Positions 100 through 2,360 of a stretch of DNA of 64,000 nt are shown here, piece by piece. How positions within the stretch are numbered: position 1 is the stretch's first letter; every line of letters starts with the position of its first letter. Both the position numbers and the translations under genes were made by a program. Source of the stretch: an uncultured Thermodesulfobacteriota bacterium (GTDB lineage: Bacteria; Desulfobacterota; BSN033; WVXP01); assembly GCA_964348095.1 (NCBI GenBank), contig CAYGBK010000085.1, forward strand, positions 920 through 64,919, in the 5' to 3' direction. Under the pieces are notes generated by a model. It was not told where the DNA came from, did no database searches, and saw nothing but the letters and a program-made list of their open reading frames with translations.

Positions 100-234
100 T
101 AAACCTCCGAGTTAAGGTTAAGGTTAAGGCTAATCGTCTATCTCGTCGGTCTCGTGGATCTGGTGCGTTCGTCTGTTTCGTTGATCTGGTTGATTTCGTG
201 AATCTCGCCTGTCTGGTCTGTTTGGTCTATTTCG
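100..234. repeat. Degenerate 7/14-nt periodic repeat tract; begins with about 3.5 perfect GTTAAGG heptamers, then TCGTNNN-type heptads
   Basis: The periodicity is visible by eye: gttaaggttaaggttaagg, then gtctatc tcgtcgg tctcgtg gatctgg and so on. Related repeat blocks occur at five other sites in the window. Confidence 0.6.
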
Positions 235-1821
235 TCAATTTCGTGGATCTCGTCTACTCCGTTTGGGTTCTGGACCAAGACCAATTCGAAGAACTATCGC
301 CCATAATACGGTATAGAGAAAGGCGTTGGCGGGCAGTTGGAGGTTTTTCTGAACAATGCTGTGGAACATCAGCCCCAAGATACCCACTAGGCCGCCCACT
401 GCTATGTATCGCCGTGGATCACCCGGGGATAGTGACCGAATCCCTGAGACGGCTTTAGAAAAGAGAAGGATGAATAGACCAATAAGGGGCAATATTCCTA
501 CTGCCCCTACCTCTGAGGCCAGTTGGAGAAAATCATTTTCTGCCTGAATATCAAGGGCAAGGATGTGAGAGGAGCGATACATGGAGAATACCTCGGTAAA
601 CGTCCCAAGGCCTGAGCCCAAGATAGGAAAATCCTTGAGTATCTCAGCGGTGTTCTCCCAAAGAATCCATCGAGACGACAGTCCTTCAGGGGTATGGAAG
701 AAACGGCTTATGACTGCATCCAGCCCAATCAACACTAACCAGAGCACGGCCAGGCCAAAAATCAGGACTGATGTTTTTGAGAACCTGCGGCTTTGATGAG
801 GATTCCTGAAGAGGAAAACGACCAGGCTGAATGAGATGAGGAGGCTCACAATTCCCCCTCTCGAGGCTGATAGAAGTAGTCCAAGGATCATCAGGATCAC
901 TCCAAACCCGAGAAGAAAATTCTTCCCGTCAAGAGACGAGAGTCGGTGACGCCACCCCATGTAATGCTTTGATTGATTTACCTCACGCGAGTATAGAAAG
1001 CCAATGCTTAAGGGGATGACCATGAGAAGATAGCCCGCGAAACAATTCCGATTAAGGAAAGTCCCTGTGACTGATGAGATCCATGCCGACCAATCCAGAT
1101 TGAAGATGTGGCGGCGGTCGCTGAAGAATTCGAACATCCCATAGAGGGACTCAAAGACTCCCACCAGAAATATAACGATAATTAGGTGCTTTGTCACCCG
1201 GTATCGATTATCCGTAAGCCTCCATTGAAGAAGAAAGATGAAAAGGCCTGAAAGGGAGATCCATTTAAGAACCTCCACCTTGGTGGCAAAAGGGTAGAAA
1301 CTGAGAGTCGTCATCAGTGACTGGTTATTGGTGATTGGTGATTGGCTACTGGTTACAGGATGGACAACTGACAGCTCACTGCGAAGGTCAAATGTTTTCG
1401 GGGAAATGATCTTCACTATCCCCTCGGGAAGGGAAACCATCTGAAAAAAGACGAAACCCAGGAACAGGGAAAGAAGGAGCACAGTTATCAGTAAATAGTT
1501 ATTGGTTATTCGTGAATAGTTACTGGTTGTTCGTGAATCGTTACTCGTAATTCGTAATTCGTTACTGCGCCTTGCTGATCCGTTGTCACTGTTTGATGAC
1601 GTGCGACTCGACATGTCGACCTTGGCATTCGCAATTGCCGATTTGTTTTCATAACGATTGGCCGATAGCCGATGACTGAGTCTCTGTGCTGCCCAGAGGA
1701 TAATGATTAGCAGAATCCCTAGTTCCATCAAGAAATAAGCCCACGGCACCTGTGAGCCGAAGGCGAGCGGCGTGAAGATGAGGAGGAGGATGAGGAGGAT
1801 CTCTATGGTTGAATCTAGCAT
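235..1821 (-). CDS. O-antigen ligase/polymerase-like (Wzy_C-type) polytopic membrane protein carrying an in-frame low-complexity insert that derives from nucleotide repeats
   Basis: 528-aa ORF with many predicted TM helices. The C-terminal two thirds resemble the O-antigen ligase family. The central segment (SNDSRTTSNYSRITNNY...) is encoded by the 14-nt periodic repeats. Confidence 0.55.
   Translation of the reverse strand: MLDSTIEILLILLLIFTPLAFGSQVPWAYFLMELGILLIIILWAAQRLSHRLSANRYENKSAIANAKVDMSSRTSSNSDNGSARRSNELRITSNDSRTTSNYSRITNNYLLITVLLLSLFLGFVFFQMVSLPEGIVKIISPKTFDLRSELSVVHPVTSSQSPITNNQSLMTTLSFYPFATKVEVLKWISLSGLFIFLLQWRLTDNRYRVTKHLIIVIFLVGVFESLYGMFEFFSDRRHIFNLDWSAWISSVTGTFLNRNCFAGYLLMVIPLSIGFLYSREVNQSKHYMGWRHRLSSLDGKNFLLGFGVILMILGLLLSASRGGIVSLLISFSLVVFLFRNPHQSRRFSKTSVLIFGLAVLWLVLIGLDAVISRFFHTPEGLSSRWILWENTAEILKDFPILGSGLGTFTEVFSMYRSSHILALDIQAENDFLQLASEVGAVGILPLIGLFILLFSKAVSGIRSLSPGDPRRYIAVGGLVGILGLMFHSIVQKNLQLPANAFLYTVLWAIVLRIGLGPEPKRSRRDPRN
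1318..1568. repeat. Two blocks (1318-1362 and 1482-1568) of 14-nt periodic TTAYTNGTNAYTNG-type repeats lying inside the ligase ORF
   Basis: Block 1: ctggttattggtgattggtgattggctactggttacagg. Block 2: tagttattggttattcgtgaatagttactggttgttcgtgaatcgttactcgtaattcgtaattcgttactg. Both have the same period and composition as the flanks of the four-helix-bundle gene. Confidence 0.55.
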
Positions 1822-1894
1822 TGTTATTAGTGATTAGTTATTTGTGACTCGTTATGAGTGATTAGTTATTAGTGACTAGCTATTGCCTGTTAGA
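1822..1894. repeat. 14-nt periodic repeat block (about 5 units) ending in ATTGCCTG, immediately 3' of the four-helix-bundle gene
   Basis: Units read ttattagtgattag / ttatttgtgactcg / ttatgagtgattag / ttattagtgactag / ctattgcctgttag. Confidence 0.6.
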
Positions 1895-2275
1895 ACCAGA
1901 ATCATCTTTGCTTTTCTTAAGCGAACGGATGTAACCGTTCAATAGGCGCATACAGTCCTCAATCCGCTTCTTGGCTTCGGTGAACTCTCCTTCTGATATA
2001 TAGGAGTTATCAAATGAGGTAATCATGTGATCAAGGAGTTCACTGAGCGAGCCTCGAGCCATACGACAAAACTGGATATTCTCTTGGAAATAATAGCGGC
2101 CAAACCCTTCAGCGATATTGGCCGTTACTGATCTCTTTGCCCTGATTATCTGATCCACAAGACGGTATTTCTCAGATTCAGGGAATCTCTTAATTAGGCC
2201 CCTCATAAAACTTTTCAACTCCCTTGATCTCTTCCAGACTTGTAACTCTTGGAAGGACTTAATCCGATTTCCCAT
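1880..2275 (-). CDS. Four-helix bundle protein (TIGR02436-like, '23S rRNA intervening-sequence protein' family)
   Basis: 131 aa. Family-typical motifs are present: LxVWKRS...L, ...QIIRAxxSVxANIAEGFGR, ...ARGSLxEL. Confidence 0.8.
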   Translation of the reverse strand: MGNRIKSFQELQVWKRSRELKSFMRGLIKRFPESEKYRLVDQIIRAKRSVTANIAEGFGRYYFQENIQFCRMARGSLSELLDHMITSFDNSYISEGEFTEAKKRIEDCMRLLNGYIRSLKKSKDDSGSNRQ

Positions 2276-2280
2276 TTCGG

Positions 2281-2360
2281 GTCAGTGATTAGTAAATCGT
2301 TGTGAATTATTGGTCATTTAGTAATTGCCTGCAATCGTTTAGTGGTAATCATGTGTCACT
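2281..2360. repeat. 14-nt periodic repeat block 5' of the four-helix-bundle gene; it also contains the ATTGCCTG motif
   Basis: Sequence: gtcagtgattagtaaatcgttgtgaattattggtcatttagtaattgcctgcaatcgtttagtggtaatcat. The AGTGATTAGT and ATTGCCTG words are shared as direct repeats with the 1822-1894 block. Confidence 0.55.

What the first reader, a model, noticed from the sequence alone, without database searches (positions are those of the whole stretch)
100..2360. A family of degenerate 7/14-nt periodic repeats (about TTAYTNGTNAYTNG) recurs at six or more sites, with a perfect GTTAAGG x3.5 microsatellite at one end
Blocks with the same period and T/A/G-skewed composition occur at 100-277, 1318-1362, 1482-1568, 1822-1894 and 2281-2360, plus a distant copy at 15643-15730. 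They are not a CRISPR array (no spacers), not a REP palindrome, and not an IS element terminus. The strict 7-nt register suggests a helical-repeat protein-binding array. Such arrays are seen for partition or nucleoid-structuring sites, or for polymerase-slippage-generated satellites.
Basis: seen in the sequence. Interest (0 to 1): 0.55.

Follow-up and report, generated by a model that had tools for sequence, protein, structure and literature searches.

The report
Heptamer repeat arrays in a polysaccharide operon
The flagged blocks are real short tandem repeats with a 7-base unit, a kind already described in other bacteria, sitting between and inside the genes of a polysaccharide-synthesis operon next to a small mobile-looking "four-helix-bundle" gene; they are not protein-docking DNA arrays.

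Summary
They give 25 motif hits against 0.04 expected, all on the + strand. Block 100-277 is really a 9-mer array plus a (TTAAGG)x3 hexamer, not GTTAAGG x3.5. Block 2281-2360 is only a weak relic. A fifth heptamer array, (GATTTCG)x10 at 2965-3037, was missed.

All genes at 1-12270 are on the minus strand, so the mRNA reads the arrays as A/C-rich, almost structure-free tracts. One array fills the SD-less spacer from the 4HB stop to the Wzy start codon. Two lie in frame in Wzy loops and one in a CpsB loop.

Orthologues carry different heptamer arrays at the same sites. The class is already known: TAACTGA repeats (MacGregor 2015), cyanobacterial STRR, and heptamer SSR over-representation.

Best reading: slippage-made satellites kept in the sense-A/C orientation, serving as unstructured SD-less leaders or spacers and as tolerated hydrophilic loop inserts. 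DNA-binding, partition and phase-variation readings are not supported.

A less expected result is that 4HB (23S-rRNA-IVS-protein) genes in general are bracketed by inverted arms, often heptamer arrays: 24/44 against 1/45 control genes.

The parts
1310..1358 (-). Heptamer array A, 7 units (+ strand GTCATCA GTGACTG GTTATTG GTGATTG GTGATTG GCTACTG GTTACAG). It lies in frame inside the Wzy-like ORF (loop 2) and is translated as VTSSQSPITNNQSLM.
   Evidence: Only one of the three sense frames is open, and it is the Wzy frame. Orthologues have variable repeat-derived inserts at the same loop.
1484..1567 (-). Heptamer array B, 12 units, in frame inside the Wzy-like ORF (loop 1), translated as SNELRITSNDSRTTSNYSRITNNYLLI. 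It shows a 21-nt super-period.
   Evidence: TRF gives 83% matches at period 21 against 70% at period 7. Lag-21 self-match is 0.84 against 0.67 at lag 7. Only one sense frame is open.
1823..1885 (-). Heptamer array C, 9 units. It overlaps the 4HB stop codon (1880-1882) and fills the whole 58-nt spacer down to 1 nt before the Wzy ATG (1821). There is no Shine-Dalgarno motif.
   Evidence: Stops occur in all six frames. The sense RNA has MFE -3.5 kcal/mol against a background of -12.7. The public gene call starts Wzy at 1821.
2281..2360 (-). Weak, decayed A/C-rich (sense) heptamer-like block directly upstream of the 4HB ATG (2275). No SD motif.
   Evidence: Lag-7/14 self-match 0.43-0.45, top ~1% of windows. 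No motif hit at <=3 mismatches. Sense RNA MFE -4.8 against background -17.4.
2395..2428 (-). Short G/T-rich (sense) heptamer-like stretch just after the CpsB stop (sense GGTTGGTTAATTGTTATCAGTCATCAGCAACTGG). Positions 2406-2423 form an 18-nt, 83% inverted pair with 1820-1837 and so bracket the 4HB gene.
   Evidence: (pair I4). Significance is marginal: z=2.2 with 7/200 shuffles, and 14/300 shuffles.
2965..3037 (-). Heptamer array (GATTTCG)x10.4 (+ strand), CGAAATC-type on the sense strand. It lies in frame inside CpsB and encodes ...RNPRSEIPNPNSKIQNPKSEI... It is part of a ~34-aa loop insertion.
   Evidence: Pfam matches CpsB in two stretches. Query residues 69-105 replace residues 69-71 of YwqE 3qy6. 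Orthologues L124 and L125 carry CGAAATC arrays at the same place.
15647..15716 (+). Heptamer array D, 10 units. It starts at the stop codon of the KptA/Tpt1-like gene (+ strand, 14916-15647) and ends 22 nt before the stop of the convergent Smr-domain gene (15738, minus strand).
   Evidence: Stops in all six frames. No terminator-like site nearby.
134..284 (-). Nonamer array, about 15 units of GTNNATYTC on the + strand (sense GARATNNAC, T-poor). It overlaps the last 16 codons of Wzy and fills most of the Wzy-GMD spacer.
   Evidence: Lag-9 self-match 0.73. Sense RNA MFE -16.5 against background -39.1 for 151 nt. A 9-mer array also sits upstream of a 4HB gene in L124.
111..133 (-). (TTAAGG)x3.8 hexamer repeat, sense (CCTTAA)3, immediately upstream of the GGAGG Shine-Dalgarno and the ATG (99) of the GDP-mannose dehydratase gene.
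   Evidence: It is conserved at the same position in L122 and L125. In L122 it is the 3' arm of an inverted pair around a second 4HB gene.
1880..2275 (-). Four-helix-bundle protein gene (23S rRNA-intervening-sequence protein family), 131 aa. It is an intercistronic cassette between CpsB and Wzy.
   Evidence: PF05635 at 2.6e-30 and TIGR02436 at 3e-28. It is the only copy in the window. A 79%-identical orthologue occupies the same site in L122. A different 4HB subfamily occupies that site in L124, and L125 has a remnant of it.
235..1821 (-). Wzy_C / O-antigen-ligase-like membrane protein gene, 528 aa, carrying arrays A and B in two hydrophilic loops.
   Evidence: PF04932 at 1e-18. The exact protein is present in the public collection (P0001). 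120 orthologues were aligned.
2437..3285 (-). CpsB/YwqE-type PHP tyrosine phosphatase gene, 282 aa, carrying the CGAAATC array.
   Evidence: PF19567 at 1.8e-50. Public gene call. YwqE match at 4.8e-42.

Best explanation
The blocks are degenerate heptanucleotide simple-sequence-repeat arrays. The + strand unit is GTKAYTN; the mRNA-sense unit is NARTMAC, one base away from the published TAACTGA repeat. A CGAAATC-type heptamer array, a 9-mer array and a hexamer repeat have the same character.

They most likely arise and change length by replication slippage (inferred). They persist only where, and in the orientation in which, they are harmless or useful.

On the operon's mRNA they read as A/C-rich, G-poor tracts that cannot fold (shown by computation). 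Placed directly before start codons that lack a Shine-Dalgarno motif (4HB, Wzy), they would act as unstructured intercistronic spacers and leaders for SD-independent ribosome loading (inferred, in line with MacGregor 2015).

Inside Wzy and CpsB they are translated as hydrophilic low-complexity loop inserts. This is shown indirectly: there is a single open frame, a 21-nt super-period, and inserts at the same loops in orthologues.

The arrays around the 4HB gene also belong to that cassette's flanking arms. In relatives these arms are inverted heptamer arrays. In this window they have decayed to mostly same-orientation tracts.
For: The arrays are real and non-random.

Gene layout and strand come from ORFs, Pfam/NCBIfam and public gene calls. 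No promoter-like or terminator-like sites lie at the arrays, so the arrays are intercistronic.

Sense-strand RNA of every array is almost unstructured: MFE -1.5 to -4.8 kcal/mol for 48-80 nt against a background of -8.6 to -17.4. Only 0-3.7% of background windows are as unstructured. The complementary G/T-rich strand folds normally or better.

Intragenic arrays have exactly one open sense frame, and it is the gene's frame. Intergenic arrays have stops in all frames. Array B has a 21-nt super-period. The CpsB array is a ~34-aa insertion relative to solved homologues.

120 Wzy orthologues carry hypervariable repeat-derived peptides at the same two loops. In orthologous loci the arrays sit at the same places with different units, and nearly all are A/C-rich on the sense strand.

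In 120 loci from many phyla, arrays within 60 nt of a start codon read A/C-rich on the mRNA 36 times against 8. In-ORF arrays are A/C-sense 18 times against 4. With a second method the leader counts are 61 against 28; 26 of those 61 lie <=8 nt from the start codon and only 6 of 61 have an SD-like 4-mer.

Published parallels: TAACTGA repeats lie 1 to a few nt upstream of SD-less start codons (PMC4679880). Heptamers lie near start codons in Nostoc (10.1101/2022.06.06.494920). Heptamer SSRs are over-represented, with a slippage rationale (PMC4692102).
Against: No expression, ribosome-profiling or reporter data exist, so the leader function is inferred from position and predicted lack of structure. 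That lack of structure partly follows from base composition alone.

Array D is not upstream of any gene. Arrays A, B and the CpsB array are not leaders. So a single function cannot cover all copies.

Slippage was not observed: three assemblies 99.9% identical to one another show no length change in any array. No array has more than two identical consecutive units.

The orientation bias could equally reflect avoidance of GUG/UUG/AUG triplets or of G-U hairpins in leaders, rather than a positive function.

The ORF calls in the 120-locus survey are crude.
Confidence: 0.55

Rival explanations
1. The arrays are purely neutral or selfish satellites. They are slippage products with no function, tolerated in spacers and surface loops. 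The orientation bias arises only from purifying selection against harmful orientations, such as in-frame stops, spurious start codons or hydrophobic peptides.
For: Unit sequence and copy number are not conserved between orthologous sites. The arrays are degenerate. Array D lies in a 3' region between convergent genes. Heptamer SSRs are generally over-represented for a proposed mutational reason.
Against: An A/C-rich repeat tract persists at the same intercistronic position in front of Wzy in 3 of 4 diverged loci, although the unit changes. Arrays abut SD-less start codons across phyla (PMC4679880). (CCTTAA)3 upstream of GMD is conserved in three loci whose Wzy proteins are only ~60% identical.
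Confidence: 0.25
2. The arrays are the arms, or footprints, of IVS-like palindromic elements. A 4HB gene sits between a 5' G/T-rich and a 3' A/C-rich heptamer array that pair into a long stem, as in 23S rRNA intervening sequences, and this stem may be an RNase III substrate. Solo arrays and ORF-less hairpins would be derivatives of such cassettes. The arrays in the Wzy and CpsB loops would be old in-frame insertions of the ORF-less form.
For: Period-7 arrays occur at 1.24/kb in the 200-nt flanks of 51 non-redundant 4HB genes, against 0.14/kb elsewhere in the same loci (P = 2e-16). Upstream arrays are G/T-rich 12:4 and downstream arrays A/C-rich 9:1.

Inverted flank complementarity reaches score >=30 in 24/44 4HB genes against 1/45 control genes.

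The CpsB-Wzy site holds a 4HB gene of one subfamily in the window and L122, and of another subfamily in L124. L125 has a remnant.

In other phyla 30 arrays have an inverted partner in GT-then-AC order, against 4 in the opposite order.

G/T-arm plus A/C-arm pairs lie inside the Wzy loops of L122 and L125. The Coxiella IVS has tandem heptamers before its 4HB ORF.

Four of the five strong heptamer arrays in the 64-kb window lie within 1.2 kb of the 4HB gene.
Against: In this window the arms are essentially in direct orientation. The only inverted pair is 18 nt long and marginal (z=2.2; 14/300 shuffles). No in-ORF array has a significant partner arm, and the RNA folds are no better than shuffles.

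Only 1 of 120 array loci elsewhere has a 4HB gene within 8 kb. No transposition mechanism, target duplication or RNase III data are available.
Confidence: 0.2
3. The arrays are binding arrays for a single-strand RNA-binding regulator, such as S1, a cold-shock-domain protein or a Csr-like protein, that sets the translation of downstream genes. This is MacGregor's post-transcriptional network idea.
For: The position before start codons and the strand polarity fit. Four positions of the unit are strongly conserved: G1, T2, A4 and T6 in 33-37 of 38 units. The hypothesis is published.
Against: At orthologous sites the unit is replaced by an unrelated heptamer (CGAAATC) or by 9-mer or 6-mer repeats. 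This argues for a composition or structure effect rather than sequence-specific recognition. No candidate binder was identified here.
Confidence: 0.1
4. The arrays form a phase-variation (contingency) switch. Gain or loss of a 7-nt unit shifts the frame of Wzy or CpsB, or changes spacing, and toggles surface-polysaccharide genes.
For: 7 is not a multiple of 3. The host genes are surface-polysaccharide genes. The two unused sense frames of the in-ORF arrays contain stops. Heptanucleotide phase variation is known in H. influenzae.
Against: No array has more than two identical consecutive units. Three assemblies of the population show no indel in any array. The 21-nt super-period indicates in-frame evolution.
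Confidence: 0.04
5. The arrays are duplex-DNA protein-binding arrays, such as a partition site, iterons or a nucleoid-structuring site.
For: Only the regular spacing and the repetition support it.
Against: The arrays lie inside ORFs and operon spacers. Their polarity is tied to transcription. The unit is not conserved between orthologous sites. No par or rep genes were found among the ORFs examined at 1-22 kb. A 7-bp period is off the helical repeat.
Confidence: 0.03

Closest known systems
TAACTGA heptamer direct repeats of marine Beggiatoaceae, Cyanobacteria and Bacteroidetes (MacGregor 2015, PMC4679880)
   Same: Tandem 7-nt direct repeats. The sense-strand unit here (T[A/C]AC-N-A-[A/G]) differs from TAACTGA at one position. 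The arrays sit in 'forward' orientation one to a few nt before SD-less start codons, and intergenic copies have stops in all three frames. Some copies lie inside or overlap ORFs. No RNA structure is predicted.
   Different: There are no tandem exact TAACTGA copies here; units are mixed and degenerate. The in-ORF arrays are in the forward (A/C-sense) orientation, kept open by unit degeneracy with a 21-nt super-period, whereas BOGUAY in-ORF copies are reverse (LSVISYQ). The host lineage is unidentified. The arrays are associated with a 4HB cassette, which that paper does not mention.
STRR (short tandemly repeated repetitive) heptamers of heterocystous cyanobacteria (Mazel et al. 1990; cited in PMC4692102; unit sequences from my own knowledge)
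   Same: Dispersed tandem heptanucleotide arrays, often several unit types side by side. Cyanobacterial loci retrieved here show GTTATTG or GTGATTG arrays next to GGTCATT, GGGCATT and similar arrays.
   Different: The classical STRR units (CCCCAGT, TTGGTCA, CAACAGT) are not the units found here. The locus shows no cyanobacterial hallmark.
Over-represented heptameric long SSRs in prokaryotes (Mrazek et al. 2007) and GGGAATC / GGGGAYT repeats of Xanthomonas and Nostoc (Rehm et al. 2015, PMC4692102)
   Same: 7-nt unit. Mostly intergenic, close to gene ends, sometimes as inverted pairs. Length and sequence vary between relatives while position is kept. Slippage origin has been proposed.
   Different: Those repeats are G-rich and form G-quadruplexes. 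The arrays here are G-poor on the sense strand and are predicted to be unstructured.
23S rRNA intervening sequences carrying a 4HB / S23p ORF (Leptospira, Coxiella; PMC4990558)
   Same: A PF05635 ORF is enclosed by complementary flanks. The Coxiella IVS has 2-3 tandem heptamers (GACAGAT) just upstream of the ORF, with copy-number variation. Relatives of the window's cassette (L122, L129, L135, L180, L193 and others) have inverted heptamer-array arms.
   Different: The cassette sits in a protein-coding operon, not in rRNA; the window has no rRNA. In this window the arms are mostly in direct orientation and no significant stem is predicted. RNase III processing is untested.
Rickettsia palindromic elements (RPE): selfish repeats inserted in frame in ORFs (Ogata et al. 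2000; from my own knowledge)
   Same: Repeat DNA is present in frame in protein-coding genes, is translated, and is confined to loops that tolerate it.
   Different: RPEs are ~100-150-bp palindromic elements with a conserved sequence, not tandem heptamers. No palindromy is detectable for the in-ORF arrays of this window.

Membership tests
TAACTGA-type heptamer direct repeats (MacGregor 2015) | Tandem direct repeats with a 7-nt unit | tested here: met
   TRF and lag analysis. Motif hits 25 against 0.04 expected.
TAACTGA-type heptamer direct repeats (MacGregor 2015) | Unit sequence is TAACTGA | tested here: not met
   The sense consensus is T-M-A-C-N-A-R, and position 6 is A, not G. The only exact TAACTGA/TCAGTTA copies in the window are five isolated singletons outside the arrays. 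Orthologue L122 uses GTTATCA, which is TAACTGA in another register.
TAACTGA-type heptamer direct repeats (MacGregor 2015) | Forward orientation within a few nt upstream of a start codon, without a Shine-Dalgarno motif | tested here: met
   Array C ends 1 nt before the Wzy ATG. The weak block ends 5 nt before the 4HB ATG. No GGAG, GAGG or AGGA occurs in the 20 nt upstream of either start.
TAACTGA-type heptamer direct repeats (MacGregor 2015) | In-ORF copies are in reverse orientation because forward copies carry stops in all frames | tested here: not met
   Arrays A and B and the CpsB array are forward (A/C-sense) and have one frame kept open.
23S rRNA IVS element with 4HB ORF | Encodes a PF05635 / TIGR02436 four-helix-bundle protein | tested here: met
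23S rRNA IVS element with 4HB ORF | Inserted in a 23S rRNA helix | tested here: not met
   No Rfam family, including rRNA, matches anywhere in the window. The gene lies between cpsB and wzy.
23S rRNA IVS element with 4HB ORF | Complementary flanks forming a stem around the ORF | tested here: inconclusive
   Window: one 18-nt pair at 83%, z=2.2, with 7/200 and 14/300 shuffles reaching the score. Relatives: clearly met in 24/44 4HB genes against 1/45 controls.
23S rRNA IVS element with 4HB ORF | Excision of the element by RNase III | not testable with these tools
   This needs RNA end mapping.
Phase-variable contingency SSR | Long perfect repeat tract | tested here: not met
   At most two identical consecutive units occur in any array.
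Phase-variable contingency SSR | Unit-number polymorphism among close relatives | tested here: not met
   L121 and L195 are 99.9% identical to the window over 4.8 and 5.8 kb with no gaps. This covers only three assemblies.
CRISPR array | Repeats separated by unique spacers of similar length | tested here: not met
   Units are head-to-tail without spacers.
Partition site / iteron array | Conserved duplex binding unit next to par or rep genes | tested here: not met
   No par or rep domains were found in the ORFs scanned at 1-22 kb. The unit is not conserved at orthologous sites.
STRR of heterocystous cyanobacteria | Units STRR1-3 (CCCCAGT, TTGGTCA, CAACAGT) in a cyanobacterial genome | tested here: not met
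   The units here are GTKAYTN and GATTTCG. The host is unidentified. The STRR unit sequences are recalled from memory.

The most novel reading that the evidence does not exclude
Four-helix-bundle (23S-rRNA-IVS-protein, Avd-like) genes would be the cargo of a widespread family of small palindromic cassettes. Their arms are inverted heptamer arrays in a fixed polarity: the 5' arm is G/T-rich and the 3' arm is A/C-rich. These cassettes and their ORF-less derivatives would insert between cistrons, and in frame into loop-coding DNA. They would be a major source of the enigmatic heptamer (STRR / TAACTGA) arrays found across bacterial phyla. The 4HB protein might bind or propagate the arrays. This would link two long-unexplained features: the function of the IVS protein family and the origin of bacterial heptamer repeats.
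Probability: 0.15. Interest if true: 0.7.

Novelty: new member of a known kind. Interest (0 to 1): 0.4.

Why it matters
Heptamer tandem repeats are common in some bacterial phyla, and their function is still unknown.

This locus adds a clean example outside the taxa in which they were described. Several unit types and periods (6, 7 and 9 nt) all sit in the mRNA-sense A/C-rich, unstructured orientation at SD-less cistron junctions. Arrays are also translated in frame at the same loops of a Wzy-like protein across more than 100 orthologues. That supports an RNA-level, composition-driven role rather than a DNA-binding one. It also warns annotators that such low-complexity loop inserts are real.

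The side result is that 4HB/IVS-protein genes are specifically bracketed by inverted, often heptameric, arms even outside rRNA. I did not find this described in the searchable literature. It gives a testable handle on what these cassettes are.

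Tried and rejected
- Rfam (gathering threshold) and tRNA scans of the whole window found nothing.
- RNA folds of the CpsB-4HB spacer and of the Wzy loop-1 region are no better than shuffles, with z = -0.6 and 0.04. A hairpin or riboswitch-like reading for the window was therefore dropped.
- A search for partner (inverted) arms of each window array was not significant.
- The hypothesis that arrays generally mark 4HB genes was rejected. Only 1 of 120 array loci has a 4HB gene, with both a single-sequence search and an 84-sequence profile.
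- Strain-level length variation was looked for twice. Both public contigs turned out to be the same population with identical arrays.
- The search for related loci with a 5-sequence 4HB alignment failed because the alignment was too divergent. The single protein was used instead.
- A lookup of the Wzy protein's contig failed, and cluster look-up gave no names. The source organism therefore remains unidentified.
- Several literature searches were unproductive because the terms 'STRR' and 'heptamer' are swamped by unrelated uses.
- No paper linking 4HB genes to heptamer arrays was found.
- Promoter and terminator scans found nothing at the arrays.

Full report
**What is in the sequence**

I read 1-2700 and 14900-16400 and scanned the whole window.

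Self-similarity in 49-nt windows reaches 0.62 only at lags 7, 14, 21 and 28, plus lag 9 at one site. It does so only in five places: 1301-1386, 1490-1575, 1817-1888, 2946-3047 and 15634-15731. The other 25 lags tested never reach the threshold anywhere in 64 kb, which serves as an internal control. TRF reports the same arrays.

The motif GTKAYTN x3 with up to 2 mismatches hits 25 times against 0.04 expected. All hits are on the + strand and fall in four arrays. Relaxing to 3 mismatches adds only array edges and one stray hit at 44397. Over 38 units the consensus is G37, T35, K34, A36, Y32, T33, N.

- 134-284 is a nonamer array, about 15 units of GTNNATYTC. Its lag-9 self-match is 0.73 and its lag-7 value of 0.33 is unremarkable.
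- The 'perfect GTTAAGG x3.5' is the hexamer TTAAGG x3.8 at 111-133.
- 2281-2360 is only a weak relic.
- The best heptamer array of all, (GATTTCG)x10.4 at 2965-3037, was missed.

**Gene context**

Everything from 1 to about 12.3 kb is on the minus strand and forms a PEP-CTERM/XrtA-type exopolysaccharide locus:
- GDP-mannose 4,6-dehydratase, starting at 99.
- A Wzy_C/O-antigen-ligase-like membrane protein at 235-1821.
- A 131-aa four-helix-bundle protein at 1880-2275 (PF05635 / TIGR02436, the 23S rRNA-IVS-protein family).
- A CpsB/YwqE PHP tyrosine phosphatase at 2437-3285.
- A DUF4124 protein, a DnaJ-domain protein and the PEP-CTERM-associated ATPase.
- Then Wzz/tyrosine-kinase-like and Wza-like ORFs, named from their translations and from the Pfam labels of the matching genes in L122; not scanned here.

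Public gene calls on an identical contig give the same starts and stops.

No promoter-like or terminator-like sites coincide with the arrays, so they are intercistronic or intragenic parts of one transcription unit.

On the sense (minus) strand the arrays read N-A-R-T-M-A-C, which is A/C-rich and G-poor.
- Array C (1823-1885) overlaps the 4HB stop codon and fills the entire 58-nt spacer to 1 nt before the Wzy ATG. There is no Shine-Dalgarno motif.
- The weak block 2281-2360 ends 5 nt before the 4HB ATG, also without an SD.
- Arrays A (1310-1358) and B (1484-1567) lie inside the Wzy ORF.
- The CGAAATC-type array (2965-3037) lies inside CpsB.
- Array D (15647-15716) begins at the stop codon of a KptA/Tpt1-like gene and faces the 3' end of a convergent Smr-domain gene.

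**Are the intragenic arrays translated?**

Four observations say yes.
- Arrays A and B each have exactly one open sense frame, the Wzy frame. The other two sense frames carry 2-5 stops. The intergenic arrays C and D have stops in all six frames.
- Array B has a 21-nt super-period: 83% matches at period 21 against 70% at period 7, and lag-21 self-match 0.84 against 0.67. This is expected if it evolved under a reading-frame constraint.
- In CpsB, query residues 69-105 replace residues 69-71 of the solved homologue YwqE. That is a ~34-aa loop insertion, and Pfam splits the match at the same point.
- 120 orthologues of the Wzy-like protein (49-71% identity) all carry hypervariable low-complexity peptides at the same two loops. 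These peptides are recognisable translations of various heptamers and nonamers, such as SEIRNPK, SLITNN, SNLKPQS, LSYQSSV and IDQIDQK.

DNA of three orthologous loci (L122, L124, L125) shows arrays at the equivalent places: inside CpsB, before the Wzy ATG, and in Wzy loops 1 and 2. Nearly all are A/C-rich on the sense strand, but their units differ, being TAAC-type or CGAAATC-type.

**RNA properties**

Folded as sense RNA, every array is close to structure-free. MFE is -1.5 to -4.8 kcal/mol for 48-80 nt, against window backgrounds of -8.6 to -17.4, and at most 3.7% of background segments are as unstructured. The complementary G/T-rich strand folds as well as or better than background because of G-U pairing. 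The nonamer array behaves the same way, at -16.5 against -39.1.

Folds of the CpsB-4HB spacer and of the Wzy loop-1 region are not better than shuffles. No window array has a significant inverted partner.

**Related sequences elsewhere**

About one hit is expected for random sequence (my estimate). The loci come from Cyanobacteria, Bacteroidota, Planctomycetota, Verrucomicrobiota, Acidobacteriota, Chloroflexota, Xanthomonadales and others.

With crude ORF calls:
- Arrays within 60 nt of a start codon read A/C-rich on the mRNA 36 times against 8.
- In-ORF arrays are A/C-sense 18 times against 4.

A second method gives 61 against 28 leaders. Of the 61, 26 lie <=8 nt from the start codon and only 6 have an SD-like 4-mer in between.

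About a quarter of the arrays have an inverted partner within 300 nt. The order is almost always 5'-G/T-array, loop, A/C-array-3': 30 against 4 in the opposite order and 3-6 for direct partners. These give strong hairpins with loops of 8-202 nt.

**The 4HB connection**

Only 1 of the 120 array loci has a 4HB gene within 8 kb, even with an 84-sequence profile. Arrays therefore do not generally mark 4HB genes.

The converse association is strong. In 69 metagenomic loci encoding relatives of the window's 4HB (51 non-redundant):
- Period-7 arrays occur at 1.24/kb in the 200-nt flanks against 0.14/kb elsewhere (Poisson P = 2e-16).
- Upstream arrays are G/T-rich 12:4 and downstream arrays A/C-rich 9:1 (Fisher P = 0.004).
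- The unit differs by lineage: GTTATCA, GTTAAGA, GGTCATT, GGGAGTC, AGTAAAT.

Irrespective of periodicity, the upstream flank is complementary to the downstream flank (score >=30) in 24 of 44 4HB genes. The figure is 1 of 45 for other genes in the same loci (Fisher P = 1e-8). This is the architecture of 23S rRNA intervening sequences, found here in ordinary operons.

The CpsB-Wzy junction behaves as a cassette site:
- The window and L122 carry orthologous 4HB genes there (79% identity).
- L124 carries an un-annotated 4HB of another subfamily (5500-5898).
- L125 keeps only the 3' remnant of that subfamily.
- L122 has a second 4HB between Wzy and GMD, bracketed by inverted (TTAAGG)n arms.

The 3' arm of that second cassette, (CCTTAA)3 just upstream of the GMD Shine-Dalgarno, is conserved in the window and in L125, which lack the second cassette.

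In the window itself the arms around the 4HB gene are mostly in direct orientation. The only inverted pair (2406-2423 with 1820-1837; 18 nt, 83%) is marginal, with z=2.2 and 14/300 shuffles reaching its score.

**Dynamics**

Two other public assemblies of the same population are 99.9% identical to the window over 4.8 and 5.8 kb, with no gap anywhere. They are L121 from run ERR2564004 and L195 from GCA_012974985.1. The arrays are therefore real and, at this divergence, stable. No array has more than two identical consecutive units. This argues against a hypermutable phase-variation switch. At greater divergence the arrays differ completely in unit and length while keeping their position.

**Comparison with what is known**

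- Heptameric SSRs are over-represented in bacteria, and a polymerase-footprint slippage explanation has been proposed. G-rich GGGAATC and GGGGAYT arrays of Xanthomonas and Nostoc are intergenic, sometimes paired in inverted orientation, and vary between relatives while keeping position (PMC4692102).
- MacGregor (PMC4679880) described TAACTGA direct repeats in Beggiatoaceae, Cyanobacteria and Bacteroidetes. Most are in forward orientation one to a few nt upstream of SD-less start codons. They have stops in all forward frames, reverse copies (LSVISYQ) inside a few ORFs, and no predicted RNA structure. A role in translation through S1, Csp or Csr-like proteins was proposed.
- A Nostoc preprint reports heptamers at start codons with possible translational effects.
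- The Coxiella 23S IVS has 2-3 tandem heptamers immediately upstream of its 4HB ORF (PMC4990558).

The window's arrays belong to this known class, and their sense unit is one base from TAACTGA. They differ in four ways:
- The units are mixed and degenerate.
- The in-ORF copies are in the forward orientation, held open by degeneracy.
- Arrays of 6-, 7- and 9-nt period coexist with the same strand polarity.
- They are associated with a 4HB cassette.

I found no paper in the searchable library that links 4HB genes to heptamer arrays.

**Verdict**

The protein-binding, partition and nucleoid interpretation is not supported. The slippage-satellite alternative is supported.

Shown:
- The arrays are real and have a fixed strand polarity.
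- The sense RNA is predicted to be unstructured.
- They sit at SD-less starts.
- They are maintained in frame inside ORFs.
- Their position is conserved while their sequence turns over.
- 4HB genes are statistically associated with inverted, often heptameric, flanks.

Inferred:
- Origin by slippage.
- Function as a leader or spacer.
- Any cassette mobility or RNase III processing.

The source organism could not be identified with the tools available.

Noticed in passing
window 134-284: A nonamer tandem array, about 15 units of GTNNATYTC (sense GARATNNAC, T-poor). It overlaps the 3' end of Wzy and fills the Wzy-GMD spacer. A similar 9-mer array (CTNAACGNT) lies directly upstream of a 4HB ATG in L124 (~8180-8316). 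Peptides such as IDQIDQKTRQT in some Wzy orthologues look like its translation.
   Followed up: partly
window 111-133; L122 ~8057-8077; L125 ~5075-5095: (CCTTAA)3 on the sense strand, immediately upstream of the GDP-mannose dehydratase Shine-Dalgarno and ATG. It is conserved in three loci whose Wzy proteins are only ~60% identical. In L122 it pairs with an inverted copy upstream of a second 4HB gene.
   Followed up: partly
L124 5500-5898; L125 ~3290-3380: An un-annotated 4HB ORF of a different subfamily (GANYREA type) occupies the CpsB-Wzy junction in L124. L125 keeps only its C-terminal remnant. The junction therefore looks like a recurrent cassette site.
   Followed up: partly
loci L126-L194 (metagenomic 4HB loci): 4HB / 23S-rRNA-IVS-protein genes in ordinary operons are bracketed by inverted repeats in 24/44 cases, against 1/45 control genes. 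Many of these have no 7-nt periodicity. I did not find this described in the papers I could search.
   Followed up: yes
loci L001-L120 (e.g. L001 3571-3654, L025 6666-6880, L046, L069, L096): Across many phyla heptamer arrays often form palindromic modules with a fixed polarity: a 5' G/T-rich array, a loop of 8-202 nt, then a 3' A/C-rich array. This order occurs 30 times against 4 for the opposite order. The loops often contain a GC-rich or terminator-like hairpin.
   Followed up: partly
window 3320-3898, 3957-5354, 5377-7524 (all minus strand): Three consecutive genes (the DUF4124 protein, the DnaJ-domain protein and the PEP-CTERM-associated ATPase) end in clearly paralogous C-terminal domains of ~110 aa (SnoaL/DUF4440-like: ...EEVKEFFADY...NGFLSLFS...IYQN...ILSLDY).
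   Followed up: no
window 7444-7524: Upstream of the probable true start of the PEP-CTERM ATPase (the TIGR03015 match starts at ORF residue 29) there is a decayed A/C-sense heptamer-like tract, with lag-14 self-match 0.53 (top 0.4% of windows). It may be a seventh, eroded array.
   Followed up: partly
L122 6143-6194; L125 3796-3862: Inside the Wzy loops of two orthologues, a G/T-type array is followed directly by its A/C-type complement (e.g. GTTATCGGT...ACCGATAAC). This is an in-frame palindromic module. At protein level many orthologues show LSYQSSV...ITNN in that order.
   Followed up: partly
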